Source: a phage. From it: 64,000 nucleotides of DNA. The stretch lies in sequence record PZ386955.1, one strand, 5' to 3'. This document shows positions 17,839-30,117 of this stretch, piece by piece. Below the pieces are notes generated by a model, which was not told where the DNA came from, ran no database searches, and worked only from the letters and a program-made list of their open reading frames with translations. The position numbers and the translations under genes are program-made. Each line of letters starts with the position of its first letter. Positions within the stretch are counted from its first letter, which is position 1.

Positions 17839-17862
17839 TCACTGAAAAAAGAGATTAACATC

Positions 17863-18257: not shown

Positions 18258-18279
18258 AAATGAAAGAAAGGTTATCATT

Positions 18280-18507: not shown

Positions 18508-18515
18508 AAATAATC

Positions 18516-18573
18516 TTGACAAGATAACTAAAATCAGTAAAATGTAATGCATCGGGCGGCAATAGTGCCGCTC
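18516..18573 (+). promoter_or_regulatory. PeSL-type promoter + stem-loop
   Basis: TTGACA-N16-TAAAAT then GGGCGGCAATAGTGCCGCTC. Confidence 0.65.
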
Positions 18574-18594
18574 ATAGTAAGAGAGATTATCAAG

Positions 18595-18810: not shown

Positions 18811-18821
18811 GGGATCACAAA

Positions 18822-18980
18822 ATGAAAACTTGCCAATGTGGTAAAAAGTCTATCTCTGGTTTAAAACGTGGCGTTGCTCTTTGTCAATATCACTATAACG
18901 CTCAAACGTGGGGTAAGCAGTGGGCGGATCAGGTGGAAGAGGCAAAGAAAGAAAATATAAAAGTAGTTGCAAAGAAATAA
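18822..18980 (+). CDS. small Cys-rich (Zn-ribbon-like) protein (52 aa)
   Basis: Not in track; CQCGKK...CQYHY motif. Confidence 0.4.
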   Translation: MKTCQCGKKSISGLKRGVALCQYHYNAQTWGKQWADQVEEAKKENIKVVAKK

Positions 18981-19004
18981 AAATAGAGTAAACTGTATTC
19001 ATCA

Positions 19005-19028
19005 AGGCGGTGGAATAGCCAACCGCCT
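19005..19028 (+). promoter_or_regulatory. 5' stem-loop (PeSL-type hairpin without clear -35)
   Basis: AGGCGGTGGAATAGCCAACCGCCT just upstream of RBS and ATG 19052. Confidence 0.45.
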
Positions 19029-19051
19029 AACAAAGAGAAGAGGAAAACACC

Positions 19052-19222
19052 ATGATCACTTTCGCCACCCGTGAAGCCGCTCGCAACGTTGCACGTAAAG
19101 TTAATGCCGCCAACCTGGGCGCTACGCTTAAAGCCCCGGTAAAAGATGAATCAGGAAAATGGATCTTCCCTGGTCTGCGTCACGCTGATAAGCTGGGAAC
19201 ATTAACGTTAAAAAATAAATAA
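19052..19222 (+). CDS. hypothetical small protein (56 aa)
   Basis: Not in track; RBS GAGAAGAGGAA. Confidence 0.45.
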   Translation: MITFATREAARNVARKVNAANLGATLKAPVKDESGKWIFPGLRHADKLGTLTLKNK

Positions 19223-19228
19223 TATCCG

Positions 19229-19288
19229 CTTGACAGTAGCATGATTTATAAGTAAAGTAACAACAACGGCGGGAAATGGTTTCCCGCC
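19229..19288 (+). promoter_or_regulatory. PeSL-type promoter + stem-loop
   Basis: TTGACA-N17-TAAAGT then GGCGGGAAATGGTTTCCCGCC. Confidence 0.65.
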
Positions 19289-19308
19289 AACAATAAAGAG
19301 ATAAGATT

Positions 19309-19668
19309 ATGAAATCAGTAAAAGCAATCAAAACTTACATTGTATCGGCTATTTCTTTTGAAGGTACTACAACCGAAAAAGAAAAAATCACCGAACTGAT
19401 GCGCCGTTTTAATTCTGAATACTGGTATCCCGATAATCAAAAACGTTACAATTATAACGTGATCAAGGCGATAGCCTCATGGTTACAAGGTTTACCGTCA
19501 GACATTAACATCGCCTTTGATTATAACGAGATTGATCATTTATTAATTGAATGGAAGTACATAAAAGAAACAAGCAAAGAAACAACCGTTACCCGTGAGC
19601 GGGAAAATTATTGGTTATATATTGCAAGCATGATCGTAATCCTGGCAAAACAGCATAACGTGGCGTAA
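19309..19668 (+). CDS. hypothetical protein
   Basis: 119 aa ORF after PeSL. Confidence 0.6.
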   Translation: MKSVKAIKTYIVSAISFEGTTTEKEKITELMRRFNSEYWYPDNQKRYNYNVIKAIASWLQGLPSDINIAFDYNEIDHLLIEWKYIKETSKETTVTRERENYWLYIASMIVILAKQHNVA

Positions 19669-19683
19669 TTAAGAGGAAGAAAC

Positions 19684-19905
19684 ATGAACGCATCACAGCA
19701 GATCGAAAAATTCAACCGCAGCAAGGCGCGTAAAGATTGGAACGAAGAGATCACCAAAAAAGGCGACAAGCGGAACAAAACAAAGAGAGATCGCAGCACA
19801 AAAAGATACTGGAACGAATAACAAAAAAGGGCGCAATAAGCGCCCTTTTAGCTTATATAGAGGCTTGTTACCCATAGGCAATGGTAACGCCAGGATAAGC
19901 CTATA
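19684..19905 (+). CDS. questionable ORF (73 aa) reading through a terminator hairpin
   Basis: ATG after RBS AAGAGGAAGAAAC; frame continues through the 19823-19848 hairpin; not in supplied track. Confidence 0.25.
19823..19848 (+). terminator. rho-independent terminator-like hairpin
   Basis: GGGCGC-AATAA-GCGCCC followed by TTTT. Confidence 0.5.
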
Positions 19906-19939
19906 AACCACGTTAGACAGCTTTACAGGAGCTTTAAAA

Positions 19940-20122
19940 ATGAAATTAGACGAAATAAGCAAGGCACTAGCCCAGGGGCAAAGGTTATGCGCCCGATATC
20001 GTGATCAATATGGCTTCATAACTAGCGGCGTGATCCTGGGGATTGAAGGCAATAAGATTTTTATTGACACGTTGAAAAACGTTGTATATAGTGACAATAT
20101 AATCTCAATAAAACATATATGA
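19940..20122 (+). CDS. hypothetical protein
   Basis: 60 aa ORF, RBS CAGGAG. Confidence 0.5.
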   Translation: MKLDEISKALAQGQRLCARYRDQYGFITSGVILGIEGNKIFIDTLKNVVYSDNIISIKHI

Positions 20123-20130
20123 GGCAAGAA

Positions 20131-20532
20131 ATGAAAAAATTATTGATCGCTGGTTTAATCTCTTTTGGCATGGTTGGAACATCTAGCGCGGCGATATCCT
20201 CCACAGTAGCAGAATTAAGCGCCGTTGATGCAATGGAAAACGTCATGCTTATTAATAATGCGATCCCCGATGAAATCATGGAGGATTCACACATGATCGC
20301 TTATGGTGCTGTTACACAACTAACGGCAAAAATAGATAAATCTATTGTTAATGGCTTAAATGAAGATGTACCATGTGAAATTATTACCAGTGTGCTGACT
20401 ACTCAAAATTTTACGCCGTGGTTAAAAAGTATTCAAAAAGTACACAGTACAGCCGCAGATCGTAGCAATGAAAAACTAGTGTCAGCCCTTGCAACGTATA
20501 CCCTAGCAAAATGCACCGAGATAAAAGATTGA
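20131..20532 (+). CDS. putative secreted protein
   Basis: Start at internal ATG (MKKLLIAGLISFGMVGTSSAA signal-peptide-like) after RBS GAGG. Confidence 0.55.
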   Translation: MKKLLIAGLISFGMVGTSSAAISSTVAELSAVDAMENVMLINNAIPDEIMEDSHMIAYGAVTQLTAKIDKSIVNGLNEDVPCEIITSVLTTQNFTPWLKSIQKVHSTAADRSNEKLVSALATYTLAKCTEIKD

Positions 20533-20579
20533 CAACATAGAAAGCACGTTATAAGATACACACAACAAAGGAGAACTAC

Positions 20580-20882
20580 ATGAACGGCATAGCTAAAACG
20601 TTTTTTCTTTTTTCTGGTGTAAATGATCCATCAATAAAAGTCGATAGTGTAAAAGAAAACAATACTATCACCGCTAAATTGTTTCAAGATGAAACAAATA
20701 ACGTGCTAATCATTAATCTTAAAGAAATAACGAAAGGTTATTATACTATTGCTTACCATGCGATTTATCATGCTGGTACTAGTGAGGAAGTGCAAACAAG
20801 CAACAACGAAAGCGCGGCGCTACCTGGTGATCTGGTACTGGGCGTTATCAGTTTAATTGTCAATGATTTTTTTAAGGAGTAA
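20580..20882 (+). CDS. hypothetical protein
   Basis: 100 aa, RBS AAGGAGAA. Confidence 0.55.
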   Translation: MNGIAKTFFLFSGVNDPSIKVDSVKENNTITAKLFQDETNNVLIINLKEITKGYYTIAYHAIYHAGTSEEVQTSNNESAALPGDLVLGVISLIVNDFFKE

Positions 20883-21140
20883 AACCATGCCCTATTTACA
20901 TTTATTTTTCGGTATCTTATTGACGGGATCTTTTTTCTTCTGTATGCTTGTTTCTATTGTAAACCACGTTTTAAGACATTAAGGAAACAGCATGAAAATT
21001 ATTCCCGTACAATATAGCGTAATAAATCCAGCATACGAGGAAGGAAGGAAAACAAGCATGGCTTTATGTTGTATTGCTACTATAGCCATGTTGTTATACA
21101 TTGTGTTTTAATAGGTTTTATAGTTGTACGCTTTAAAGGC

Positions 21141-21169
21141 TTGACAATTTTTTGTTATGCTTTAAACTA
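21141..21169 (+). promoter_or_regulatory. sigma70-like promoter
   Basis: TTGACA-N17-TAAACT upstream of 21212. Confidence 0.4.
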
Positions 21170-21211
21170 TATCTTGAAAACGGCAAAGGCCGCAAACAAA
21201 AGGGTAAAATT

Positions 21212-21535
21212 ATGAAATCTGTGATCGGTGTTTATTTGGATAACTCTGATTTTTTCTATCATCGCGCTCGTTTCCTTGATGCTATTGATATGATAGAATC
21301 AGGCTTTAAAGAGTATCGCCTTGCACATGATGACCTGGAAGCATTACAGGGCAATAGTGTTTTTACATTGCAAGCTAAAGCACTATGCAAAAGCCGGATC
21401 GACATTGCGAGCAAAAAGATAGAACGCGGCATGTCCTGGTTGCGCACCGCAGAAATCAACATGGGGCAATGGTACGGCGAAAACTTAGAAAATAAACATA
21501 CTTTTGTCAATGTAGAAAATATTGAAGATTATTGA
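21212..21535 (+). CDS. hypothetical protein
   Basis: Track ORF 21152..21535 trimmed to ATG (MKSVIG) after RBS AAGGG. Confidence 0.55.
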   Translation: MKSVIGVYLDNSDFFYHRARFLDAIDMIESGFKEYRLAHDDLEALQGNSVFTLQAKALCKSRIDIASKKIERGMSWLRTAEINMGQWYGENLENKHTFVNVENIEDY

Positions 21536-21598
21536 TTGACAGCACACCTAACAGATAGTATATTGTATCTCATAGAGCGGGGAAATGGTTTCCCCGCC
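21536..21598 (+). promoter_or_regulatory. PeSL-type promoter + stem-loop
   Basis: TTGACA ... TAGTAT then GCGGGGAAATGGTTTCCCCGCC. Confidence 0.65.
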
Positions 21599-21617
21599 TT
21601 AACAGAAGAGATAAGAT

Positions 21618-21902
21618 ATGAAGATCACAAAAGCACTTTCCAACTATGCAGCACGTCGCGGATTATGTTTAACCGTTGAAAATTTAGGGAAAGAAGATTT
21701 TTTGTGCTTTTGGGAGCTTGAGAATGATAATGAGTGGATCTTCTCTTATTCTATCTGCGAAGATCAAAACGGTTGTTTATTAACCTGGCGCGGTAATATC
21801 TATTTACCGGAAGAAATCAAGGAAGAATTACCAGGCACGATCATGACTGAGAAACAGCTTAAGGAAGTGATTAATTTTGTAGGGCAAAACATTAAAAAAT
21901 AA
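21618..21902 (+). CDS. hypothetical protein
   Basis: 94 aa ORF after PeSL. Confidence 0.6.
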   Translation: MKITKALSNYAARRGLCLTVENLGKEDFLCFWELENDNEWIFSYSICEDQNGCLLTWRGNIYLPEEIKEELPGTIMTEKQLKEVINFVGQNIKK

Positions 21903-21903
21903 T

Positions 21904-21963
21904 TTGACACCAGGCAAACAACGTAGTAAAGTTTATCACATAGGGCGGGAAATGGTTTCCCGC
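21904..21963 (+). promoter_or_regulatory. PeSL-type promoter + stem-loop
   Basis: TTGACA-N16-TAAAGT then GGGCGGGAAATGGTTTCCCGC. Confidence 0.65.
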
Positions 21964-21985
21964 TCACAACAAAAGAGAACAAATC

Positions 21986-22156
21986 ATGATCCCGACTATG
22001 TTTTACGTATCGCGCAAAGGTCACAATATTTTTTGGTCTGAAGATTTAAATGAAGCCATGACGTTTGCCCGTGATCGTGTTGCTATCGGTGGCGTTAACA
22101 TTACTGTAACCGATGAAAACGGCATTGAATACTATAACGGCGACGATGAAGAGTAA
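21986..22156 (+). CDS. hypothetical small protein (56 aa)
   Basis: Not in track; follows PeSL and RBS AAAGAGAA. Confidence 0.45.
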   Translation: MIPTMFYVSRKGHNIFWSEDLNEAMTFARDRVAIGGVNITVTDENGIEYYNGDDEE

Positions 22157-22163
22157 TTAATGA

Positions 22164-22184
22164 GGCGGGGGAGTATTCCCCGCC
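22164..22184 (+). promoter_or_regulatory. 5' stem-loop (PeSL-type hairpin)
   Basis: GGCGGGGGAGTATTCCCCGCC just upstream of RBS and ATG 22204. Confidence 0.45.
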
Positions 22185-22203
22185 GTCAATAAAGAGGTAA
22201 ATC

Positions 22204-22473
22204 ATGAAAATATCATTGGACGTTGCAATCAAGGCCATCGAATCCGGTTACACCCTGGTAAAAGATGATAAGGCTAAAATAGTGCATCATGTTAACAAGG
22301 AAACAGGCGAAAGCATGATCACATATAAAGCCGCCTACTTTCTCCAATCAGTAGCAGATCCGCGCGTACAGCGCCAGGTCACGGCGGCTATTGCTAAAAA
22401 ATTATGTGCTTTACAGGGCACAAGTTTTAACGAGATCCCGCCGTGTTTTGACTGGTCGAGCTTGAAAAAATAG
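22204..22473 (+). CDS. hypothetical protein
   Basis: 89 aa ORF. Confidence 0.6.
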   Translation: MKISLDVAIKAIESGYTLVKDDKAKIVHHVNKETGESMITYKAAYFLQSVADPRVQRQVTAAIAKKLCALQGTSFNEIPPCFDWSSLKK

Positions 22474-22474
22474 T

Positions 22475-22531
22475 TTGACAAAAATTATAAATCGGGTAGA
22501 ATGTATTTCGTAGGGCGGCAATAGTGCCGCT
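22475..22531 (+). promoter_or_regulatory. PeSL-type promoter + stem-loop
   Basis: TTGACA-N16-TAGAAT then GGGCGGCAATAGTGCCGCTC. Confidence 0.65.
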
Positions 22532-22553
22532 CGCAACTAAAAGAGAAATCATC

Positions 22554-22748
22554 ATGGCGCTTAAAAAACTAACAAGCAATACTCGTTGGGATGAAATCGA
22601 CGGGGAAGTATACATTTTCGCCCGTAAACCAGGTGATCAAAAATGGTCAAAGGCTTTTACTTGTCACCCTGCAACAATAGATCTAATAAAAAGTAAAGGT
22701 TTACGTGAAGCAGTAGCGAGAAGTTTACTGATTCCTTGTAAAAAATAG
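22554..22748 (+). CDS. hypothetical protein
   Basis: Track ORF 22524..22748 trimmed to ATG (MALKKL) downstream of hairpin. Confidence 0.55.
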   Translation: MALKKLTSNTRWDEIDGEVYIFARKPGDQKWSKAFTCHPATIDLIKSKGLREAVARSLLIPCKK

Positions 22749-22749
22749 T

Positions 22750-22811
22750 TTGACAATATGCGGTTATCTGGTAAAGTGTACCACGTAGGGCGGGGCAATA
22801 AGGCAACGCCC
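22750..22811 (+). promoter_or_regulatory. PeSL-type promoter + stem-loop
   Basis: TTGACA-N16-TAAAGT then GC-rich hairpin GGGCGGGGCAATAAGGCAACGCCC. Confidence 0.55.
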
Positions 22812-22944
22812 ACTAATGAGGGTAAAATCATGTTAGAGAAAATTTTCACGGTTGTAATAGTGGGCCTGGCGTTATCGGTTGGAGTGATTGCAACTATGGC
22901 TAACATGATCCTATCTTCCCACGGTATTGGATAAGGTGAATCAA

Positions 22945-23160
22945 ATGATCACGAATAAGACAGGTAAAACGGAATTTTTACGCGGCTTGCAAATAGGTAA
23001 ACCTGAGATCTGGCATTGCACTAAAAGACCACGTGACGAAATGAAAGATTTCACCGCTACTTTACAACGTGTTAAAATATCTATCACACAGAAAAAAGCC
23101 TTGTTAGTAGTAGAAAATGAGATACCGCAAACCATTATTATTGTCGAGCGTACAGCATGA
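22945..23160 (+). CDS. hypothetical protein
   Basis: Track ORF 22927..23160 trimmed to ATG after RBS AAGGTGA; a possible 34-aa membrane peptide ORF (~22830-22934) precedes it. Confidence 0.5.
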   Translation: MITNKTGKTEFLRGLQIGKPEIWHCTKRPRDEMKDFTATLQRVKISITQKKALLVVENEIPQTIIIVERTA

Positions 23161-23543
23161 AAACTGAAATCATTATTGAAATCATCAACGGTTATAAAGA
23201 AGCCTTTATTTTTGCTGAATCAGCCAGGGATCATGAAGGCTATTTTATTGATAACTTAGACGATTATGATTTTTCAGATCAAGCCCATCAGAGGATCATT
23301 CATGACGTAGCGGCTTATTGTGATGCCAATGATGCTGCTATCTCTGAGGCAATGAGCGACGGCGCTACAGCAAACCAGATCGGGAATGATTTACATTTTA
23401 CCCGTAACGGTCACGGCGTAGGCTTTTGGGATCGCCCTGAAATATACACTACTAACACCGCCAACCGCCTAACAAATGCAGCTAAATTAATGCCATCGGT
23501 GCATGCTTACATTGGTGAAGATAATTTGATTTATATTGAATAA
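23157..23543 (+). CDS. hypothetical protein
   Basis: 128 aa, ATGA overlap with upstream gene. Confidence 0.6.
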   Translation: MKTEIIIEIINGYKEAFIFAESARDHEGYFIDNLDDYDFSDQAHQRIIHDVAAYCDANDAAISEAMSDGATANQIGNDLHFTRNGHGVGFWDRPEIYTTNTANRLTNAAKLMPSVHAYIGEDNLIYIE

Positions 23544-23549
23544 AAAGTA

Positions 23550-23608
23550 TTGACACCGATCCCCAGTATGTTATTATTTACCACGTAGGCGGGAAATGGT
23601 TTCCCGCC
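23550..23608 (+). promoter_or_regulatory. PeSL-type promoter + stem-loop
   Basis: TTGACA ... TATTAT then GGCGGGAAATGGTTTCCCGCC. Confidence 0.65.
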
Positions 23609-23631
23609 AGGTAATCAAAAAGGTAAATACT

Positions 23632-24021
23632 ATGCGCAACCTGGTTTCTGTTTCTAACGTTGAAAAATTCCAATCCTTGCAGGGTATCGTTAACAACGTA
23701 GCGCCTTTTTTAGTCAATGGCTTGATTGCAAAGATGAAAAATAAACATCATGCGGCATGGTCTGCTTACTGCTTTGATAATGATGAAAAAGCGGCTGAAA
23801 TGATGTTAAATATGCTGTTAGACAGTGTAGAATCATCTTTACCGGAAAACATCGCAGAAGAGATCACCTATCGTTATAATATGGCGATCACTTACCAGGA
23901 AGTGGCGCAGTTTAACATGATGGATGAAGATGACCAACAGGATCAGGAAATGTTTTGGGAGTATGCAGATCGTCAATCGGCTTTTGATGAAAAGTTAGCG
24001 ATGTATTATAACGAATATTAA
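23632..24021 (+). CDS. hypothetical acidic protein
   Basis: Track ORF 23596..24021 starts inside hairpin; trimmed to ATG (MRNLVS) after RBS AAAAGG. Confidence 0.55.
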   Translation: MRNLVSVSNVEKFQSLQGIVNNVAPFLVNGLIAKMKNKHHAAWSAYCFDNDEKAAEMMLNMLLDSVESSLPENIAEEITYRYNMAITYQEVAQFNMMDEDDQQDQEMFWEYADRQSAFDEKLAMYYNEY

Positions 24022-24033
24022 TACACGGCAAAA

Positions 24034-24062
24034 GAAAGGGGCGCACTAAGCGCCCTTTTTTG
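24034..24062 (+). terminator. rho-independent terminator
   Basis: GGGGCGC-ACTAA-GCGCCCC followed by TTTTTT. Confidence 0.65.
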
Positions 24063-24408
24063 TATTCTTTTTTCACAATGGAAGCGACACGTAAAGAATA
24101 GGCGTAAAGGTGGCGTAAAACCATCTAAAACCGACTGTAACCGCTTAAACAAGGTAGGAATGATTAATCACCTTACCAGGATGAAAAAGCTGTTATAAAG
24201 CTATCTAGAGCGTTTAAAGCACATAGGAAATAATTTGCTTTTTATCTTGCCTTTTGTCCTACTTTTGATTATTATTATGGAACGGGCGGCACCTGGGAGC
24301 AGGGGAAGATAATCACCGGAAGATCCCGCTATATATTGATAGCTAATATCTATTAAACAACAAAACATCAAAGGAATAAACTATCAAATCTTTACAATCT
24401 TATCTATT

Positions 24409-24437
24409 GACCAATAAATCACAATAGTTTAATATTG
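24409..24437 (+). promoter_or_regulatory. sigma70-like promoter
   Basis: TTGACC-N17-TAATAT upstream of 24484. Confidence 0.4.
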
Positions 24438-24483
24438 TTTTTAGAGGGTAGAATATTCCCCGAACGAAAACAGGAAAAAGAAA

Positions 24484-24720
24484 ATGAAAGAAGTCATGAT
24501 CCTCAAAAAATCACCTATTTTACGTGGCGGTTTTATCGCTTACTCTGATGATCTGTTAATTGCAACAGTTGCAAAAATACTAAAATCAGAAGATGACAGT
24601 AAAAACGGCGTTTATCGTATCTGTTTCACCCGTGGAAAATTACAAGGCAAGATCGCTTATGCCTTTGATTTACAAGATGTAAACGATAAAATATGCGCTG
24701 TTATTGATTATGCAAAATAA
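24484..24720 (+). CDS. hypothetical protein
   Basis: 78 aa ORF, RBS AGGAAAAAG. Confidence 0.55.
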   Translation: MKEVMILKKSPILRGGFIAYSDDLLIATVAKILKSEDDSKNGVYRICFTRGKLQGKIAYAFDLQDVNDKICAVIDYAK

Positions 24721-24732
24721 TTAATTTTCTTA

Positions 24733-24760
24733 TTGACACCGGATCACGCTTACATTATTA
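24733..24760 (+). promoter_or_regulatory. sigma70-like promoter
   Basis: TTGACA ... CATTAT upstream of 24808. Confidence 0.45.
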
Positions 24761-24807
24761 TTTATCACGTAGGGCAAATCATTTTAAACGGTAAACGAGG
24801 AATCACC

Positions 24808-25191
24808 ATGAGCAATATCATCAACCTGGCGGCTACTGTAAACGGTAAAGATTTTAACGGCGCTGTAGATCGTGATCCTATGTGGTGCTTATCAGTGTTT
24901 AAAGGCGATCTGGTTGAAGTTAGAACAACCGAAGGTTATAGCGACGATTATAAATGCGAGATTCATTTACACAACTGGTACACGGGTAAAACTTATGCGC
25001 TGAATCATGCGTTTATCGGGAAAATTGAATATCGCGAGATGATCGACGAGGAAACCGGGCAAGATTTTAGCGAAAACGTTTATATTCGTTCCGAGACATT
25101 AGCCGAACGTTTGATCGAGAAGATGAAAGCAAAAAATAAAATTAATTTAGCTCATTGGATTGATATAACAAACGATCCAGCTTATCAATAA
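24808..25191 (+). CDS. hypothetical protein
   Basis: Track ORF 24733..25191 overlaps promoter; trimmed to ATG (MSNIIN) after RBS ACGAGGAA. Confidence 0.55.
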   Translation: MSNIINLAATVNGKDFNGAVDRDPMWCLSVFKGDLVEVRTTEGYSDDYKCEIHLHNWYTGKTYALNHAFIGKIEYREMIDEETGQDFSENVYIRSETLAERLIEKMKAKNKINLAHWIDITNDPAYQ

Positions 25192-25205
25192 ATAACATTT
25201 CACAC

Positions 25206-25232
25206 CAGGGCGCACAAAGCGCCCTTTCTTTT
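25206..25232 (+). terminator. rho-independent terminator
   Basis: GGGCGC-ACAAA-GCGCCC followed by TTTCTTTT. Confidence 0.6.
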
Positions 25233-25490
25233 ACCTCAATAAAGATGATAGCTTTTACCTATCAAAAACGTTCACCGAAAAAAGTGAATAGATCGCGGTA
25301 TCGAGCTAATCAAGGAGCAGATGAACAACCATACCATGAAGATCATAAGGCGCTTACAACGCGTTTTAGACCGCTTGTTTTTAATTTCTCCATGTAACTA
25401 TCTGGCAAAAACAGCCTTTTTCTTGTCTTTCCTCTTAAATAATAATCATTCTCATTTGTAGCTGATTATTTATGCAATAAACTGAATAAT

Positions 25491-25514
25491 GCAATAATGA
25501 TAATCATTCTTAAC
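25491..25514. promoter_or_regulatory. Fur-box-like motif, copy 2
   Basis: AATAATGATAATCATTCTT, 16 of 19 matches to GATAATGATAATCATTATC; partial copy at 25441-25458. Confidence 0.4.
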
Positions 25515-25885
25515 TTAAGACCATCTAACCTATAAAATAATAAGCTATCTAACTAAATTAAAGCTAATTATCTCACCTTTATTTATAACTTACTGTTACT
25601 ATCTCATTGATAACCTTATATTAAACAACAATAACTAATATAAATCATTACCAAGCTAAAGATAAGCTATCTAACCTTTAAAACTATAACTATAATCTAT
25701 CGAATTGTTGCACAAAGTAACTATTAAATTGTTAGTAACATTACTAAATAATTAATATCCTATCTATTTATGATCTAATCTTTACCTTCCTATCTATTAC
25801 CTAAATAATCATTTCATACAATAACTATAACAAGAAATATAATTCGCAAGCGTATCATTAGCAGCCTATGCCGGACACATAGGCG

Positions 25886-26031
25886 GCTAATAATAACGCA
25901 ACTACACACCCCACATAATAACCATCACCGATAGTTATTATTTGTGCTTATGTAGCTTGCAACAATTGCAAGCGCAACAATATACATGGTATATTGTATC
26001 CCTTACATTGTTGCGGTGCGTTATTATTAGC
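25886..26031. repeat. nested inverted repeats / palindromes in non-coding region
   Basis: Perfect 15-nt arms GCTAATAATAACGCA inverted ~110 bp apart; internal palindromes GCTTGCAA-CAA-TTGCAAGC and ACAATATAC-ATG-GTATATTGT. Confidence 0.6.
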
Positions 26032-26360
26032 TAATGTTTAGAACATTGGCTATAATATAAGCTATCCAATAATAATAAGCTATACAATAATAAACATAGT
26101 GAATAATGACCCCCGATGATCATAATGCGCCACCTTCCAGGGGGCGCTATGTGAACACAAAGAAACCTTTCTTGTCAAGAAAAATATTGCCACTATTGCG
26201 CAAAATTATTTATATCTGAATAGATGATTTTTCATACTATTGCCCCCAATACTATCCCTATTTGTTGCCCTAACTATTGTCATTTGTTGAGCCTACTTTC
26301 TTAAAAGCGCAATAAATCAGAATTATCTTGATTTTTAGGGCGTTTTATAGTATAGAAAAT

Positions 26361-26384
26361 ATGCAAATGATAATCATTATCAGC
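26361..26384. promoter_or_regulatory. Fur-box-like motif, copy 3
   Basis: GCAAATGATAATCATTATC, 17 of 19 matches to Fur consensus. Confidence 0.4.
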
Positions 26385-26548
26385 TATCTTCCACGGGTGG
26401 CACTATTTCACGCAGGATCATTTCATTTGGCAAGGTGTATATAGATGTTTAGACTTGCCAAGCCATTGATTTACTTAGAATTTATCTGTTTTGTTGTGAG
26501 TAGTACCTTTCTTGCTCAGAAAATAATCAAAAGTCTTATAAGTCATTG

Positions 26549-26577
26549 AATGATAATGCAAATGATAATTATTCTCA
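26549..26577. promoter_or_regulatory. Fur-box-like motif, copy 4 (tandem half-sites)
   Basis: GATAATGCAAATGATAATTATTCTC. Confidence 0.35.
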
Positions 26578-26950
26578 TTGATATTTGAGGGGGACGGTCG
26601 GCAGAAATCGGGGGGCGCTGAAAATCGCGTTAAGCACCTCTCGCAAGCGAGCAGTATTTTGCGGCAAGTTATTGATATTATTGACTTTACGCTTATGAAA
26701 AGGGGGTGTGTCGAAATAAATCGGGTATACCGGAAAAATTTTGTGGCATAGATATTTATTTGTCTATATTATGTACAAAGGGGTGTGTTAAAAATAATAG
26801 GTATATATAGAATAATTGATAGGGAATACCTATACTAATTCCTATACTAAATCCTTCATTAATGATGTTTCTATGGTGCTGTTCTTGTAATAGATGAAAA
26901 GACGCTGTATGATGTGTGGCATGAAACGTAAATTTATAAAGGAGTCTGAT

Positions 26951-27310
26951 ATGTGTGTTCCTATTAGCAGTCCACTGCTGTTAGAATTTTACAAAGCATG
27001 GATGGAAGATCATTCCTCAATGCATCGTGAGAATGTTGGTTTGTGTATTTGCCTTATGGATTATCTGGCAACCACTATGTCAAAGAAAAAACCTACGCAA
27101 GAAGATATAGAACATTTCAAGATGGTTCGCAGTAAAACGCTAGAAGAGATGAAATTGCAATTCACGTGTGCTGGGCTATCATCATTCCTGCCCTTTAATG
27201 ATGACCTTCTGTGTTATGAAGATGAAGGTAAGAAACATTCTTGCCATACTAACCCAGGGAGATTGCAGTGGGTGAAAGATCGTATTGCCGATTCATGTAA
27301 GGGTGTGTAG
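26951..27310 (+). CDS. hypothetical protein, paralog family A member 1
   Basis: Trimmed to ATG after RBS AAGGAG; shares LxFY, GLCxCL, FTCAGL..LPFN, CHTN..RLQWVKDRI with three paralogs. Confidence 0.6.
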   Translation: MCVPISSPLLLEFYKAWMEDHSSMHRENVGLCICLMDYLATTMSKKKPTQEDIEHFKMVRSKTLEEMKLQFTCAGLSSFLPFNDDLLCYEDEGKKHSCHTNPGRLQWVKDRIADSCKGV

Positions 27311-27311
27311 A

Positions 27312-27467
27312 ATGTGGGAATTGGTTGGAATAGTTTGGTTAATGATAAAAGCAGGTTTTGTCGGTTTCGGACTTCTTATAATTTTGTGTATGTTCCTTAG
27401 TGCAATACAGGCATTCTTTTATCTGCTAGGTAGAATACTTAAGTTAGGAGGTGATCATGAAAAGTAA
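27312..27467 (+). CDS. small membrane protein (51 aa)
   Basis: Trimmed from track ORF 27285..27467 to ATG (MWELVG); hydrophobic. Confidence 0.4.
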   Translation: MWELVGIVWLMIKAGFVGFGLLIILCMFLSAIQAFFYLLGRILKLGGDHEK

Positions 27468-27825
27468 TATTCCGTTGAGTAGTGCAGCTTTAATACGATT
27501 CTATAAAGCATGGATTGCCAACCATCCGGCAATGAATCGCACAACGAGTGGCTTGTGTGGTTGTCTGGTAGATTATGTAGATGATTTTGTTGGTGAGGTA
27601 ACTAGAGAAGAAGATAAAAGATGGCGTGATCGTTTGTTGGATAGTTTGAAATACGAAATGAGGAAACAATTTACATGTGCAGGACTGGACTACAATCTTC
27701 CGTTCAATGCAGATTGCATGGATTACCTTTCAGAGTGTATAGACTTGGCGTGTCATACCAACACGTTACGTCTTCAATGGGTGAAAGACAGAATCGAAGA
27801 TGCAAATAATGCTTGCATTGAATAG
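27457..27825 (+). CDS. hypothetical protein, paralog family A member 2
   Basis: RBS AGGAGGTG; motifs FYKAW, GLCGCL, FTCAGL..LPFN, CHTN..RLQWVKDRI. Confidence 0.6.
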   Translation: MKSNIPLSSAALIRFYKAWIANHPAMNRTTSGLCGCLVDYVDDFVGEVTREEDKRWRDRLLDSLKYEMRKQFTCAGLDYNLPFNADCMDYLSECIDLACHTNTLRLQWVKDRIEDANNACIE

Positions 27826-27895
27826 AAATGTCTGTACACTGTGTTCCATAAGATATGCAATATCGCGCATAACAAACTACTAATGAGAGGTGTAA

Positions 27896-28354
27896 ATGAA
27901 AACTGTATCTTTGTATCTTGCTAACACGGAGCGTGTACATAATCTTGTAAAAGAATGCGGTGTGAGTGTTCAATTTAACATAGGAAAGCCTTCCGTGGTG
28001 ACAGGCAGTGAGATGTGTGTTATTGATTTCCTCAATGAATATTTTCGTGGAAAACCTATTGCTCGTCACTTCATTCAAGAAATGCGAGATGTACTACAGG
28101 CTTATGAATTCTACCCAGAAATTTGTGAACGCTATGAAACTATTCTTAGTTCTGTAGAAGATCCAGATACTAGTGAAACAGGTGTTTCCCACTTACTGTG
28201 GATGTTGAATGAAATTCAGGATGGGTGTAATGGTATGTCTGAAACCAAACGCCATCGTTGGCTAGGCTATATTCAGGGTGTTATGGTTATGAAAAACCTT
28301 ATTACCGTTGATGATGAACGTAATGCTACACGCCCCGTCTTTAATGGAGCATAA
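27896..28354 (+). CDS. hypothetical protein
   Basis: 152 aa, RBS GAGAGG. Confidence 0.55.
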   Translation: MKTVSLYLANTERVHNLVKECGVSVQFNIGKPSVVTGSEMCVIDFLNEYFRGKPIARHFIQEMRDVLQAYEFYPEICERYETILSSVEDPDTSETGVSHLLWMLNEIQDGCNGMSETKRHRWLGYIQGVMVMKNLITVDDERNATRPVFNGA

Positions 28355-28355
28355 C

Positions 28356-28571
28356 ATGAAAAGCATTCAGGTGTGTATTGAAAATAATTGTGGTTATCTG
28401 GGGTTGACACATGTTGCTTTCCCTCTTATGTTAGATGCTGATATCGCTTACAGCGGAGTTGCTTATGTGTCATTCAAGACAATGAGCCAAGTACCTGGCT
28501 GGAAGTGGGAAGTAGTTGATGTTGTTGAAGGAGAAGATTATGTTTTCCTTCCACACGAATATACTGTTTAA
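28356..28571 (+). CDS. hypothetical protein
   Basis: Trimmed from 28308 to ATG (MKSIQV) after RBS GGAGC. Confidence 0.5.
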   Translation: MKSIQVCIENNCGYLGLTHVAFPLMLDADIAYSGVAYVSFKTMSQVPGWKWEVVDVVEGEDYVFLPHEYTV

Positions 28572-28586
28572 AGAGAGGAAAAGAAG

Positions 28587-28763
28587 ATGGATAAACAAAC
28601 TACTGTGTACTTAGTAACAAAGAATACCCCAGGCTGGAGCCAATGCAGCACTGTACCTTACAAGATCTGTGCAACATTAGAACTAGCACAACGCGCAGAA
28701 GCAGAAGTGGATGCCATGCAATACAGCTATGGTGAAATCATTCCTTTTACTCTTGAACAATAA
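28587..28763 (+). CDS. hypothetical small protein (58 aa)
   Basis: Not in track; RBS AGAGGAAAAGAAG. Confidence 0.45.
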   Translation: MDKQTTVYLVTKNTPGWSQCSTVPYKICATLELAQRAEAEVDAMQYSYGEIIPFTLEQ

Positions 28764-28774
28764 GGATTTGTGTA

Positions 28775-29227
28775 ATGTTTGAAATTGGTAAAGTGTATCG
28801 TTTTAAAAACCCATCTTATATCCGTAAGTTTGCTAACATGTCTGAGTGCAATAGCAGGATTGCTTCTTTTTTAGGTGATTCCTATTTTCGTGTATTAGAT
28901 GTGGATGATTGGTATGGTGTCACTGCTTTGCAATCCTTAGCAGGAGAACAAGAAATTATCGCTCAAAATGAAGGAGACTTTCTTCAGTGTTACACGTTGC
29001 TTGCAAAAAGTGAGTTTGAGTATTTTGTAGAAGTCTTAGAGGAAGCACCAAAAAGTAAACACGAAGAGAAATACCTGCTTGTAGTGGATGGAGTTCCGAT
29101 CATGGAAACCATCTCCCGTGAGGAAGTTGAAAAAGAGGCGAAACGTTACAAGCTGGATCGTACACAGAGTGTAGTTGAAGTCTATTCTCTTGTTGGTGTT
29201 GCAGATATTAGTGTGAACATCGTATAA
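28775..29227 (+). CDS. hypothetical protein
   Basis: 150 aa ORF. Confidence 0.55.
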   Translation: MFEIGKVYRFKNPSYIRKFANMSECNSRIASFLGDSYFRVLDVDDWYGVTALQSLAGEQEIIAQNEGDFLQCYTLLAKSEFEYFVEVLEEAPKSKHEEKYLLVVDGVPIMETISREEVEKEAKRYKLDRTQSVVEVYSLVGVADISVNIV

Positions 29228-29230
29228 TAT

Positions 29231-29443
29231 ATGTGTAATGACAGATACATTCTTCGTGTATCTGATAAGTCTCCTATGTTTGACTGGCGGGGCTGGTGGC
29301 TACTAGCTCCGATGCAAGGTCTGACAGACGTGGAAAAGGAGGCTTATGTGTATACAAAAGAAGAGATAGAAGATAGCCTTTATTTGACAGATAACATTAA
29401 GAATGGTATCTTTGAGTGTAAATTGAAAGGAGAGGAAGAATGA
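29231..29443 (+). CDS. hypothetical protein
   Basis: 70 aa ORF. Confidence 0.5.
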   Translation: MCNDRYILRVSDKSPMFDWRGWWLLAPMQGLTDVEKEAYVYTKEEIEDSLYLTDNIKNGIFECKLKGEEE

Positions 29444-29739
29444 CTATTACAGAAAAACTGCGCTGTATTGCAAAGCAAAGTGGAGAAGGTTTATGGTTTC
29501 CTATTGAGGAAATTATTCAGGACTGTTATGATCAGGCTAAGACTGGCAAATACTCCAAAGCATTTAAACCATCTGTTTTCGGTTTGGATGACTATCCAAA
29601 AAATGAACAAGCAAAGAAACGACAAGTTGATTTGATTGATCTTGCTATGGAAGCACTACGAGAGCATGGGCTTAGTAAGGTGTATGCTTTAAACACCAAA
29701 GAGGGCTTTGTAGATTCAGTGATCGTAGACTGGTATTAA
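29440..29739 (+). CDS. hypothetical protein
   Basis: 99 aa, ATGA overlap, RBS GGAGAGGAAG. Confidence 0.55.
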   Translation: MTITEKLRCIAKQSGEGLWFPIEEIIQDCYDQAKTGKYSKAFKPSVFGLDDYPKNEQAKKRQVDLIDLAMEALREHGLSKVYALNTKEGFVDSVIVDWY

Positions 29740-29748
29740 GGAGAAGTC

Positions 29749-30117
29749 ATGCAAGAGAATAATAAAGTGTGTAACATGAAAAGCAGCCCCTATTTGCTAC
29801 AATTTTATGAATGGTGGTTAGAACAAGAAGATACAAACTTTAGCAAAAAGCACTATGGTCTTTGCACGTGTCTTGTAGACTTCTTATACAATATTGCTTG
29901 GATAAAAGATGTTGAGAATCTAGCAAACCTTCAGTCCTCTGTACGAGAGGAAATGAAGGAACAATTTAAGAAAGCGGGTTTGAACCATTTACATCCGTTT
30001 AATACGGATTTCTCGCACTACTTTACGGAAACAGAGCTAGGCATTGCACACCTTAACAAAGAACGTGTACAATGGGTGATTGATCGTATTCGTGATATGG
30101 AGGAATATAATGGTTAA
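29749..30117 (+). CDS. hypothetical protein, paralog family A member 3
   Basis: RBS AGGAGAAG; motifs LQFYEWW, GLCTCL, AGLNHLHPFN, RVQWVIDRI. Confidence 0.6.
   Translation: MQENNKVCNMKSSPYLLQFYEWWLEQEDTNFSKKHYGLCTCLVDFLYNIAWIKDVENLANLQSSVREEMKEQFKKAGLNHLHPFNTDFSHYFTETELGIAHLNKERVQWVIDRIRDMEEYNG

What the first reader, a model, noticed from the sequence alone, without database searches (positions are those of the whole stretch)
25233..26893. 1.7-kb AT-rich non-coding region with nested inverted repeats, iterated short motifs and Fur-box-like sequences
No ORF with an RBS is seen here, unusual in such a compact genome. It contains a nest of inverted repeats at 25886-26031 (15-nt perfect arms plus two internal palindromes), repeated AATAAGCTATC and CTATTG(C/T)C motifs, three copies of AAAGGGGTGTG (26700, 26779; another at 13772) and Fur-box-like motifs. 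The region sits at the boundary between the PeSL array and the early block. It may be a replication origin, a packaging site or a cluster of small regulatory RNAs.
Basis: seen in the sequence. Interest (0 to 1): 0.55.

Follow-up and report, generated by a model that had tools for sequence, protein, structure and literature searches.

The report
Phage genome-end region with Fur boxes
This gene-free 1.76 kb stretch is the region around the physical ends of a phi92-like coliphage genome: it holds the 343-bp terminal repeat and its two conserved cut sites, promoter-like units carrying binding sites for the host iron sensor Fur, and a conserved multi-hairpin element, and its right cut site is copied in a family of E. 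coli chromosomal islands.

Summary
Window 25192-26950 has no ORF that survives in the sister genus. The nested inverted repeat and the Fur-box matches are real and far above chance.

The window is a Justusliebigvirus (phi92-like myovirus). The 343-bp direct terminal repeat annotated in phi92 maps to 26290-26632. Both boundaries lie in a shared box, GTTR|AGCAC-YTCT, and a Phapecoctavirus record has its 329-bp repeat at exactly homologous positions. So this is the genome-end and packaging region, collapsed to one repeat copy.

Three things appear undescribed in the searched literature:
- **Fur operators.** Fur-box arrays score 14-17 of 19, against 16 for E. coli ryhB. They sit in paralogous promoter-like units and keep their positions in most of the sampled clades of the subfamily.
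- **Structured element.** A ~170-nt multi-hairpin element at 25864-26031 has 10 compensatory pairs and no Rfam match.
- **E. coli island family.** About 8% of complete E. coli genomes carry an integrase-bearing island with a 40-nt perfect copy of the right cut site. The island's tail-protein homologues match this phage subfamily specifically or best, which suggests a satellite that mimics the packaging signal.

The packaging-site reading is supported. An origin or small-RNA role is neither shown nor excluded.

The parts
25207..25232 (+). Intrinsic terminator hairpin (AGGGCGCACAAAGCGCCCT followed by TTCTTTT) that closes the upstream gene block.
   Evidence: Terminator scan. Annotated as a terminator in phage Paula. 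The same hairpin family occurs at 19829 and 24039. Conserved in all genera.
25246..25264 (.). Operator-like palindrome TGATAG-N7-CTATCA at the left edge of the gap.
   Evidence: The pattern TGATAG-N7-CTAT gives 4 strand-hits at 3 sites (24337, 25246, 26817) against 0.2 expected; 0 of 100 shuffles reach 4. Conserved at both edges of the gap in Phapecoctavirus.
25435..25511 (.). Upstream pair of Fur-box matches (25435-25453, 14/19; 25493-25511, 16/19) with ATGCAAT repeats. The second match forms a promoter-like unit, ATGCAA + Fur box.
   Evidence: A Fur-box match of 15/19 or 16/19 lies at the homologous position in the five Phapecoctavirus genomes and in KP2025; none was found there in Citrobacter Tr1.
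25515..25855 (+). AT-rich, G-depleted spacer (A 41%, T 36%, C 18%, G 5.6%) with ATAAGCTATC repeats.
   Evidence: The sequence cannot be aligned between genera, but the G depletion is kept (G 9-12% in seven relatives).
25864..26031 (.). Conserved multi-hairpin element. It comprises hairpin P0 (25864-25884), a 15-bp closing stem P1 (25886-25900 / 26017-26031), an inner hairpin P2 (25912-25944), an invariant hairpin P3 (GCTTGCAA-NNN-TTGCAAGC, 25955-25973) and a variable hairpin P4 (25973-26015).
   Evidence: RNAalifold predicts 40 pairs, 10 with compensatory changes. The covariation score is 0.194 against 0.067 in shuffles (0 of 500 reach it) and at most 0.041 when partners are slid. No Rfam match.
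26052..26093 (+). Tandem 18-mer (ATAATAATAAGCTATACA, 2.4 copies).
26107..26150 (+). Degenerate paralogue of the Fur-box promoter-like unit. In relatives it still scores 14/19.
   Evidence: Repeat family D1.
26290..26632 (.). Single copy of the 343-bp direct terminal repeat. The left end of the virion DNA lies at 26290 and the right end at 26632.
   Evidence: Alignment to both annotated phi92 repeats. BME3 has a 342-bp repeat by PhageTerm. The repeat occurs once in the window.
26282..26303 (+). Left cut box, CATTTGTTG|AGCCTACTTTCTT.
   Evidence: The box GTTG|AGCA..TTCTCTTAAA is conserved in all clades. Schickermooser's repeat starts at exactly this position.
26361..26400 (+). Promoter-like unit P1: ATGCAA, a Fur box (26363-26381, 17/19), TATCTT, then a G-rich start CCACGGGTGG. 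A possible leftward promoter GTGCCA-N16-GATAAT overlaps it.
   Evidence: (D1). A Fur-box match lies at the homologous position in all sampled clades.
26546..26595 (+). Promoter-like unit P2: a conserved TTGAAT, then ATGCAA, a Fur-box array (26552/26558/26564, in 6-nt steps), GATATT, then GAGGGGG.
   Evidence: In ukendt, ASO2A and ZCKP1 the array is exactly one 6-nt unit shorter.
26579..26646 (+). Right-end element TGATATTTG...GAAAATCGCGTTA|AGCACCTCTCGCAA, containing the right cut site (26632|26633). Positions 26607-26646 are identical to the E. coli islands.
   Evidence: The stretch is unstructured as RNA, z = +0.94.
26670..26790 (+). Two promoter-like units without Fur boxes, each ending in GGGGTGTG: TTGATA-N16-TATGAA at 26670-26710, and GTGGCA-N18-TATTAT at 26743-26790.
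   Evidence: (D2). The motif GGGGTGT-AAAAATAA-GGTATATAT is conserved in Phapecoctavirus.
26817..26833 (.). Second operator-like palindrome, TGATAG-N7-CTAT, about 120 nt upstream of the first gene.
   Evidence: (I1).
26940..26953 (+). Ribosome-binding site AGGAG and the ATG (26951) of the first rightward gene. This gene is a paralogue of the next gene, 27451-27825.
   Evidence: The two proteins are 46% identical, E = 4e-33.

Best explanation
The region is the genome-end module of a phage that packages DNA with short, exact direct terminal repeats.

Shown:
- The 343-bp terminal repeat of phi92 maps to 26290-26632.
- Its two boundaries lie in a shared, subfamily-wide box, GTTR|AGCAC-YTCT.

Inferred (T7-type model): in replicating concatemers one repeat copy joins neighbouring genomes. 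The terminase recognises and cuts at the two boxes, and the repeat is duplicated, so each virion DNA starts at 26290 and ends at 26632. The 1.1 kb to the left of the repeat is then the right-end leader. It consists of an upstream Fur-box pair, a G-depleted AT-rich tract and a covarying multi-hairpin element. The hairpin element most likely acts in cis as folded single-stranded DNA during end processing or packaging.

Inferred from consensus matches only: the repeat and the 320 nt to its right carry four or five tandem rightward promoter-like units that would drive the first genes. Two units inside the repeat, one upstream and one in the other large gap at 14180-14270 have a Fur operator array between the -35-like and -10-like hexamers. 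Fe-Fur of the host would therefore bind there and shut these units when iron is plentiful, tying part of early transcription to iron status.

The right cut box is probably the essential packaging signal, because an E. coli island family that also encodes divergent tail proteins of this phage subfamily keeps a 40-nt perfect copy of it.
For: Identity. The best match is 95% to Justusliebigvirus genomes.

Terminal repeat.
- The query ends exactly at the right end of the phi92 record, under the annotated right terminal repeat.
- The annotated 343-bp left and right repeats align to 26290-26632.
- BME3 has a 342-bp repeat by PhageTerm (PMC12210895).
- All Stephanstirmvirinae are reported to end in direct terminal repeats (PMC12695924).
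- The Schickermooser record carries an exact 329-bp repeat bounded by ATGTTG|AGCAAG and CGCGTTA|AGCACT, at homologous positions.
- Both boundaries share GTTR|AGCAC-YTCT in the clades sampled.

Fur boxes.
- Enrichment: 0 of 1000 shuffles reach the observed counts.
- Matches at 6-nt steps, as in footprinted Fur clusters (PMC2189734).
- Calibration with the same metric: E. coli ryhB scores 16/19 and the fepA-fes region 13/19.
- Positional conservation across the sampled clades, most complete for the two boxes inside the repeat, despite 70-80% or unalignable flanks.
- Paralogous units, including the one at 14216-14273, where 19 of 22 core bases match P2 by my count from the sequences printed.

Structured element. 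z = -7 to -8, 10 compensatory pairs, and far above the shuffled and slid controls.

Island.
- 40-nt perfect match, about 78-nt homology, in 428-451 of 5,426 genomes.
- The island's tape-measure homologue hits only this subfamily.
- Its Dit-like protein is 53% identical to Phapecoctavirus proteins.

Non-coding status..
Against: - The termini were not mapped for this phage. The window holds one repeat copy, so the ends are inferred by homology at about 94% identity.
- Promoters are only consensus matches. The scan found 24 against 17.6 expected. The -35/-10 assignments are not consistent between genera, and leftward promoters overlapping the same Fur boxes are equally possible.
- Fur binding is untested. 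Chen et al. note that some consensus-predicted Fur boxes do not bind.
- GTTRAGC alone is not rare: 9 copies in the window against 14.8 expected. Recognition must therefore use a wider context.
- The island lacks the left cut box, which a simple T7-like two-cut model would require.
- The role of the hairpin element is a guess. Departures from Watson-Crick pairing do not identify a strand. On the + strand there are 7 A-C cells and 3 G-U cells.
Confidence: 0.7

Rival explanations
1. Fur-regulated non-coding RNA locus. The Fur-box units are promoters for non-coding transcripts. The 170-nt multi-hairpin element is a structured RNA, made either rightward from the 25489 unit or leftward from a promoter in the repeat, and it acts in trans or in packaging.
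For: - Strong covariation and stability of the element.
- The - strand RNA fold is more stable than the + strand fold, -81.6 against -63.5 kcal/mol.
- Fur-box promoter-like units lie about 350 nt away on either side.
- The host sRNA ryhB has the same architecture of a Fur box placed within its promoter.
Against: - No intrinsic terminator follows the element on either strand.
- No Rfam family matches.
- About 98% of cells are Watson-Crick outside one mis-registered helix, and G-U-type departures occur on both strands. This fits DNA-level symmetry as well as RNA.
- No expression data are available.
Confidence: 0.25
2. Replication origin. Transcription from a flanking promoter enters the AT-rich, G-depleted tract (25515-25855), which serves as the unwinding or R-loop zone. 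The hairpin element loads a primase or helicase, as in transcription-primed phage origins.
For: - A 341-nt tract that is 77% AT with G at 5.6%. The skew is conserved in every clade although the sequence is not.
- Promoter-like units lie on both sides.
- The hairpins would fold in single-stranded DNA, z = -8.3.
Against: - DnaA boxes are not enriched.
- The short repeats are not conserved between genera.
- Cumulative GC skew simply follows gene orientation.
- There is no replication data.
- The location next to the termini is explained already by packaging.
Confidence: 0.2
3. Fur decoy. The many high-affinity Fur sites, doubled by the terminal repeat and multiplied by replication, titrate host Fur and derepress the host iron-uptake regulon. 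They would not regulate phage promoters.
For: - There are at least nine overlapping matches in four clusters within 64 kb, and the two best-scoring clusters lie inside the repeat.
- Their quality equals or exceeds host operators.
- Multicopy Fur boxes are known to titrate Fur. This is the Fur titration assay, cited from established knowledge.
Against: - The boxes sit specifically inside paralogous promoter-like units with fixed spacing to conserved flanking hexamers. A pure decoy would not need this.
- There is no evidence on Fur copy number or on host derepression.
Confidence: 0.1
4. The right-end element shared with the islands is a regulatory site, namely a promoter, leader or operator for a phage early factor. 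The islands would use it to sense infection. It would not be a packaging signal.
For: - In the islands the element precedes a Shine-Dalgarno sequence and a 24-codon hydrophobic ORF, and it forms a conserved module with it.
- In the phage it lies between promoter-like units P2 and P3.
Against: - The invariant core TCGCGTTAA(G/A)CA is centred exactly on the mapped DNA end.
- The same box recurs at the left end, where no such module exists.
Confidence: 0.2
5. The region encodes small proteins missed by gene callers.
For: - Some records annotate 8-10 tiny CDS here.
- ORF 25321-25461 follows AAGGAG and is intact in Justusliebigvirus, with several synonymous differences from Paula.
Against: - None of the 13 ORFs survives in Phapecoctavirus, although the nucleotide blocks are conserved.
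- No PHROG family matches.
Confidence: 0.04

Closest known systems
Annotated direct terminal repeats of phage phi92 (NC_023693) and relatives (BME3, Schickermooser, UAB_1)
   Same: It is the same element. The sequence is about 94% identical, has the same 343-bp extent and the same boundaries.
   Different: Those records annotate only the repeat. The cut boxes, Fur operators, hairpin element and island homology are not annotated there, and were not found in the papers searched.
T7/T3-type concatemer junction. It has short exact terminal repeats, terminase cuts at fixed sites, and a hairpin at an inverted repeat next to the repeat as a processing intermediate (Chung, Nardone and Hinkle 1990, recalled from memory)
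   Same: - A short exact repeat with fixed ends.
- An inverted-repeat structure just left of the repeat at the right genome end.
- Tandem host-type early promoters at the left end.
   Different: - The phage is a 146-kb myovirus with no sequence relation to T7.
- The repeat is twice as long.
- The structure is a five-helix element, not a single palindrome.
- The promoter-like units lie inside the repeat and carry Fur boxes.
- The mechanism is inferred, not tested.
Fur-repressed E. coli promoters (ryhB, fepA-fes, iucA), and Fur boxes upstream of sitABCD in lambdoid prophages (PMC6969025)
   Same: - The same 19-bp consensus and 6-nt phased overlapping sites.
- Placement across promoter hexamers.
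- Scores equal to or better than ryhB.
   Different: - Here the boxes are in a virulent phage, inside its terminal repeat and in front of early genes of unknown function. They do not precede an iron-uptake cargo operon.
- Binding is untested.
Satellites that carry the helper's packaging site (P4 with P2 cos; cos-type PICIs such as SaPIbov5). Cited from established knowledge
   Same: A small integrase-bearing island keeps a short stretch identical to the helper phage's DNA-end recognition sequence.
   Different: - The helper would be a virulent terminal-repeat myovirus.
- Only one of the two cut boxes is present.
- The island encodes tape-measure-like and Dit-like proteins related to the helper.
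- No induction or transfer has been shown.
PeSL (promoter-early stem-loop) cassettes of T4-type phages (Arbiol et al. 2010, recalled from memory)
   Same: Repeated regulatory cassettes, consisting of a promoter-like unit plus a terminator hairpin, between small early genes.
   Different: The units here are defined by a Fur box and a G-rich start, not by the PeSL consensus. There is no evidence that they mediate shuffling.

Membership tests
Short direct terminal repeat (fixed-end) phage genome terminus | The same sequence is present at both ends of the linear virion DNA. | tested here: met
   Met in relatives. phi92 has a 343-bp repeat at both record ends, and Schickermooser has an exact 329-bp repeat. 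The window itself holds one collapsed copy, so for this phage the feature is inferred by homology.
Short direct terminal repeat (fixed-end) phage genome terminus | Termini lie at fixed positions and are not permuted. | not testable with these tools
   This needs read-start data. The literature reports PhageTerm repeats for BME3 and repeats for the whole subfamily.
Short direct terminal repeat (fixed-end) phage genome terminus | Conserved recognition or cut sequence at the repeat boundaries. | tested here: met
   GTTR|AGCAC-YTCT occurs at both boundaries in the clades sampled, and the boundary positions are identical in two genera.
Fur operator (Fur regulon) | Match to the 19-bp Fur box, above chance. 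| tested here: met
   Scores of 17, 16 and 15 of 19. None of 1000 shuffles reaches the observed counts. With the same metric ryhB scores 16.
Fur operator (Fur regulon) | Clusters of overlapping sites phased by 6 (or 3) bases. | tested here: met
   Sites at 26552/26558/26564, 26363/26369, 25435/25441 and 14180/14186. The criterion comes from PMC2189734.
Fur operator (Fur regulon) | The site overlaps a functional promoter. | tested here: inconclusive
   Only consensus-level promoters were found, and the assignments differ between genera.
Fur operator (Fur regulon) | Fe-Fur binds the site and represses transcription. | not testable with these tools
   This needs a gel shift or footprint, a Fur titration assay, or transcript mapping in a fur mutant.
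Structured non-coding RNA | A conserved secondary structure supported by compensatory changes. | tested here: met
   10 of 40 pairs are compensatory. The covariation score is 0.194, against 0.067 in shuffles and at most 0.041 with slid partners.
Structured non-coding RNA | A defined transcript, with its own promoter and terminator or processing sites. | tested here: not met
   There is no terminator on either strand, and only weak promoter matches lie nearby.
Structured non-coding RNA | Membership of a curated RNA family. | tested here: not met
   No Rfam match reaches E < 0.1.
Bacterial-type replication origin | A cluster of DnaA boxes or initiator iterons. | tested here: not met
   DnaA boxes number 99 against 101 expected in the window, with no perfect box in the gap. 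The short repeats are not conserved across genera.
Bacterial-type replication origin | An AT-rich unwinding element. | tested here: met
   25515-25855 is 77% AT, and this composition is conserved.
Phage satellite carrying the helper's packaging signal (applies to the E. coli island) | An integrase-bearing island of about 10-15 kb that holds a copy of the helper's DNA-end recognition sequence. | tested here: met
   A roughly 13.5-kb island runs from an integrase gene to tRNA-Thr. It has a 40-nt perfect match across the cut site.
Phage satellite carrying the helper's packaging signal (applies to the E. coli island) | Helper-dependent induction, packaging and transfer. | not testable with these tools
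   This needs infection experiments.

The most novel reading that the evidence does not exclude
The right cut box of the terminal repeat (26579-26646) is the packaging signal of phi92-like and phAPEC8-like virulent myoviruses. It has been captured by a previously undescribed family of E. coli satellites, present in about 8% of complete genomes and encoding tape-measure-like and Dit-like proteins related to the helper. At the same time, the phage gates the promoters in its terminal repeat with host Fur, so that the first transcription after DNA entry reads the cell's iron status.
Probability: 0.35. Interest if true: 0.8.

Novelty: new variant of a known kind. Interest (0 to 1): 0.62.

Why it matters
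phi92-like and phAPEC8-like phages are broad-host-range candidates for phage therapy, yet their packaging signals, early promoters and regulation are essentially uncharted.

- **Cut boxes.** Fixing the two cut boxes gives a correct genome start for annotation and a handle for engineering.
- **Fur operators.** Fur operators in the terminal repeat of a virulent phage would mean that infection is tuned to iron availability, the main nutritional stress in the gut and in infected tissue. This could affect therapeutic efficacy and is directly testable.
- **Hairpin element.** The covarying hairpin element is a new conserved nucleic-acid structure with no assigned family.
- **Island family.** If the islands are satellites, they would be the first described parasites of this phage group. 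They would also be a natural resistance or interference factor in about 8% of E. coli strains.

Tried and rejected
- **Rfam scans.** Scans of 13000-30000 and of the gap alone found nothing significant.
- **tRNA and tmRNA scan.** None found.
- **DnaA boxes.** Not enriched.
- **Coding potential of small ORFs.** Rejected by loss of the ORFs in the sister genus and by the absence of PHROG hits.
- **CTATTG(C/T)C motif.** At chance level.
- **GTTRAGC as a unique signal.** Rejected, because it is not rare in the window.
- **Right-end element as a structured sRNA.** Rejected, z = +0.94.
- **Strand of the hairpin element from G-U against A-C departures.** Inconclusive. My first version of helix 3 was off by one column and paired 0%, so I dropped it; all its bases are invariant and it carries no covariation evidence.
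- **More distant copies of the hairpin element in IMG/VR.** A palindromic-stem pattern returned only unrelated AT-rich contigs. The P3 pattern found only members of the subfamily.
- **Left cut box, Fur boxes or hairpin element in the island.** All absent.
- **Island capsid-like protein against phages.** No match.
- **Literature.** Searches for Fur boxes in these phages, for satellites of this subfamily and for promoter maps found nothing. The phi92 genome paper (PMC3457257) is not held.
Full report
**What the window is.** The 1.9 kb around the finding matches 80 phage records by megablast. The best matches are at 95% (Escherichia phages VivaForever and KKE7M), and nearly all are Justusliebigvirus, the phi92-like myoviruses of about 146 kb in the Stephanstirmvirinae. 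In relatives the flanking genes are the phi92 gp248 homologue upstream and small rightward genes downstream. Careful annotations leave the space between them empty, whereas automatic ones fill it with 8-10 tiny CDS.

**Check of the observation.** The gene-free stretch runs from 25192 to 26950. The ATG used in relatives is 26951, behind AGGAG. It contains 13 mechanical ORFs of 30-57 aa. On an alignment with Paula and four Phapecoctavirus genomes, none of them is kept in the sister genus, where they show stops, frameshifts or lost starts. None hits a PHROG family. The one ORF with a Shine-Dalgarno-like sequence (25321-25461) is restricted to Justusliebigvirus.

The gap is nevertheless conserved in length (about 1.5-1.75 kb) and contains blocks of strong nucleotide conservation in both genera. 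The 15-nt perfect arms at 25886-25900 / 26017-26031 and the inner palindromes exist.

The Fur-box matches are strong: 17/19 at 26363, 16/19 at 25493, 14/15/14 at 26552/26558/26564 and 14/19 at 25435. In 1000 dinucleotide shuffles of the region, none reaches the observed counts at any threshold from 14 to 17 matches. All matches of at least 16 in the 64-kb window lie here.

For the short motifs:
- ATAAGCTATC is clustered, 14 against 6 expected.
- AAAGGGGTGTG is marginal on its own, 3 against 0.74 expected.
- CTATTG(C/T)C is at chance.

**The region contains the terminal repeat.** In a sensitive search, the query stops matching phi92 exactly at the last base of the record, under the feature 'right end direct terminal repeat'. 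phi92 carries annotated 343-bp repeats at both ends. Aligned to the window, they cover 26290-26632.

Independent support:
- BME3 has a 342-bp repeat determined with PhageTerm.
- A 2025 paper states that members of the subfamily end in direct terminal repeats.
- Many records start 285 nt before window position 26575, that is, at the left boundary.

The Phapecoctavirus Schickermooser record has an exact 329-bp repeat. Its limits, ATGTTG|AGCAAG and CGCGTTA|AGCACT, fall on the columns homologous to TTTGTTG|AGCCTAC (26289|26290) and CGCGTTA|AGCACC (26632|26633).

Printing both boundaries for ten genomes shows one common box, GTTR|AGCAC-YTCT. It is followed at the left end by TCTTAAA and preceded at the right end by GAAAAT(T)CGC. 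GTTRAGC alone is not rare, so recognition must use this wider context. The window holds the repeat once, as expected for an assembly that collapses the two copies.

The identity of the region as the genome-end module is therefore well supported. The mechanism is inferred by analogy with T7-type phages: terminase cuts at both boxes in concatemers and the repeat is then duplicated.

**Layout of the module.** The same order of anchors is found in Justusliebigvirus and Phapecoctavirus (including phiWec179). The two more distant genomes, Citrobacter phage Tr1 and Klebsiella phage KP2025, keep the hairpin element, both cut boxes and Fur-box matches, but lack some of the exact anchor strings. The order is:
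1. terminator hairpin;
2. TGATAG-N7-CTATCA palindrome;
3. an upstream pair of Fur-box matches;
4. an AT-rich tract;
5. the multi-hairpin element;
6. left cut box;
7. Fur box;
8. Fur-box array;
9. TGATATTTG;
10. right cut box;
11. GGGGTGT motifs;
12. a second TGATAG-N7-CTAT palindrome;
13. the first gene.

The palindrome occurs at three sites in the window against 0.2 expected. The AT-rich tract (25515-25855) cannot be aligned between genera, but it keeps a striking depletion of G: 5.6% here and 9-12% in seven relatives.

**Fur boxes.** Four points speak for real Fur operators.
- **Quality.** With the same metric, the E. coli K-12 ryhB promoter scores 16/19, with a second site 6 nt away. The footprinted fepA-fes region scores only 13/19.
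- **Phasing.** The matches come in overlapping sets exactly 6 nt apart. Chen et al. describe this arrangement for footprinted Fur clusters.
- **Conservation.** The two boxes inside the repeat have matches of 14-17 of 19 at homologous positions in all sampled clades. The upstream box is matched in Phapecoctavirus and KP2025 but not in Tr1. This holds although the flanks are 70-80% identical or unalignable. Three of the Phapecoctavirus genomes (ukendt, ASO2A, ZCKP1) differ in the second array by exactly one 6-nt unit.
- **Context.** The boxes belong to paralogous units, each with (A)TGCAA(A/T), a Fur box filling the next 17-18 nt, a -10-like hexamer and a G-rich start. The units are at 25489, 26107 (decayed), 26361 and 26556. 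A further unit lies in the other large gap at 14216-14273, where 19 of 22 core bases equal the 26556 unit by my count.

Two units without Fur boxes but with the same GGGGTGTG start follow at 26670-26710 and 26743-26790.

My reading is an array of tandem rightward early promoters at the left genome end, of which those inside the repeat are Fur-repressed. This is inference. The promoter scan is barely above its shuffles (24 against 17.6). The hexamer assignments are not consistent between genera, and leftward promoters overlapping the same boxes are possible. Chen et al. also warn that some consensus-predicted boxes do not bind.

I found no paper describing Fur boxes in these or other virulent coliphages. 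The nearest precedent is a Fur box upstream of sitABCD in lambdoid prophages.

**The multi-hairpin element.** The element at 25864-26031 is among the best-conserved parts of the gap. Apart from the terminator block at its left edge, it is the only part of the gap that blastn still detects in Citrobacter phage Tr1. Twelve non-identical sequences from five clades align over 183 columns. RNAalifold gives 40 pairs, 10 of which have compensatory changes:
- In the closing stem, ACGCA/TGCGT becomes AGCCA/TGGCT, CCGCA/TGCGG or ACACA/TGTGT.
- In P0, GCCTATG/CATAGGC becomes CGCTATG/CATAGCG or GCCTACG/CGTAGGC.
- The inner hairpin P2 changes sequence almost entirely but stays a hairpin.

On my named structure the covariation score is 0.194, against 0.067 in column shuffles (0 of 500 reach it) and at most 0.041 when partners are slid. 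One helix I added was mis-registered and is discarded.

The segment folds far better than shuffles on either strand, as RNA or as DNA. Departures from Watson-Crick pairing are all single transitions and occur in both senses, so the strand cannot be called. There is no terminator and no Rfam family.

The element lies about 260 nt left of the repeat, that is, at the right end of the virion DNA. I therefore favour a cis-acting DNA structure used in end processing or packaging. T7 forms a hairpin at an inverted repeat beside its repeat during concatemer processing; I cite this from memory, not from a tool. A structured RNA or an origin element remain open alternatives.

**An unexpected relative in E. 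coli chromosomes.** Searching 26290-26900 against 5,426 complete E. coli genomes gave hits in 451 of them, always on the chromosome and in unannotated DNA. The match is a perfect 40-mer, ATCGGGGGGCGCTGAAAATCGCGTTAAGCACCTCTCGCAA. It equals window 26607-26646 and spans the right cut site.

Homology extends to about 78 nt, starting at TGATATTTG. The middle part resembles other clades of the phage subfamily. The invariant core across phages and islands is TCGCGTTAA(G/A)CA, centred on the DNA end.

In strain M9682-C1 the element lies in a roughly 13.5-kb island between a tyrosine integrase gene and tRNA-Thr. In strain M8, a degraded copy sits at tRNA-Leu next to a BREX system. The island encodes:
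- a Dit-like tail protein;
- a 613-aa protein resembling a tape measure;
- a weak capsid-like protein;
- a protein resembling a replication initiator;
- a 2.3-2.9-kb iteron-rich non-coding region.

By tblastn, the tape-measure-like protein hits only Stephanstirmvirinae: 134 records at about 30% identity to their tape measure. The Dit-like protein is closest to Phapecoctavirus proteins, at 53% identity and E = 1e-58. The island lacks the left cut box, the Fur boxes and the hairpin element. As RNA, the shared stretch is unstructured.

The simplest reading is that the islands are satellites, or interference elements, of this phage subfamily that keep the helper's packaging signal, as P4 and cos-type PICIs do. 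This in turn supports the right cut box as the essential packaging signal. A rival reading is that the element is a regulatory leader, because in the islands it precedes a Shine-Dalgarno sequence and a 24-codon hydrophobic ORF. I found no description of such satellites.

**Verdict.** 'Packaging site' is right, 'origin' has only compositional support, and 'sRNA cluster' is unproven. The terminal repeat itself is already annotated in phi92. The following appear new and are testable:
- the shared cut box;
- the Fur-box promoter units conserved across the subfamily;
- the covarying hairpin element;
- the island family.

Noticed in passing
L012 2847-16363 (NZ_CP024275, E. coli O6:H16 M9682-C1); L010/L011 (NZ_CP019953, strain M8); L013, L023, L024: A family of integrase-bearing islands, about 13.5 kb long, sits at tRNA-Thr or tRNA-Leu in 428-451 of 5,426 complete E. 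coli genomes. The islands carry a 40-nt perfect copy of the phage right cut site, a tape-measure-like protein whose only phage homologues are in this subfamily, a Dit-like protein closest to Phapecoctavirus, and a 2.3-2.9-kb iteron-rich non-coding region. This is a candidate undescribed satellite of virulent phi92-like and phAPEC8-like phages.
   Followed up: partly
window 13744-14380: A second large non-coding gap contains a 67-nt tandem repeat (13958-14088), TGATATTT repeats followed by AAAGGGGTGTG (13729-13780), and a Fur-box cluster (14180-14222, scoring 15/14/15 of 19). The cluster belongs to a unit paralogous to the one at 26556. If that unit is a rightward promoter, its transcript would be antisense to the - strand ORF at 14381/14506-14772.
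   Followed up: partly
window 24337-24353, 25246-25264, 26817-26833: An operator-like palindrome, TGATAG-N7-CTAT(CA), occurs at three intergenic sites (4 strand-hits against 0.2 expected). It is conserved at both edges of the gap in Phapecoctavirus. This suggests a dimeric regulator of unknown identity.
   Followed up: partly
window 19829-19845, 24039-24055, 25208-25224: The same GC-rich terminator hairpin, GGGCGCA-NNN-AGCGCCC, is reused three times between small rightward genes (0 expected by chance).
   Followed up: no
L006 2405-2432, L008, L009, L014 2460-2491, L016 2085-2183: In Phapecoctavirus, Citrobacter Tr1 and Klebsiella KP2025, a short GC-rich hairpin with compensatory changes lies 4-6 nt before the left cut site (for example CCGCC-ACA-GGCGG and TACCGC-ATA-GCGGTA). 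It is absent in Justusliebigvirus. Tr1 and KP2025 carry two left-type boxes 67 nt apart.
   Followed up: no
window 26951-27310 and 27451-27825: The first two genes to the right of the terminal repeat are paralogues (46% identity, E = 4e-33) of unknown function. They share conserved cysteines and an FYKAW motif. A further family member is annotated downstream in relatives (VOG7392).
   Followed up: partly
L010 2575-2649: In the islands the shared element is followed by a Shine-Dalgarno sequence and a 24-codon hydrophobic ORF (MYLDVFIAIYGYLFFIYLYLKITL). CCTCTC inside the shared element could pair with that Shine-Dalgarno sequence, a layout reminiscent of type I toxin mRNAs.
   Followed up: no
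MG065639, MG065645, MG065656, MG065689: Four records labelled 'Campylobacter phage', with host C. jejuni, are about 93% identical to this coliphage region. They carry the same E. coli-type Fur boxes and cut sites, so the host label looks doubtful.
   Followed up: no
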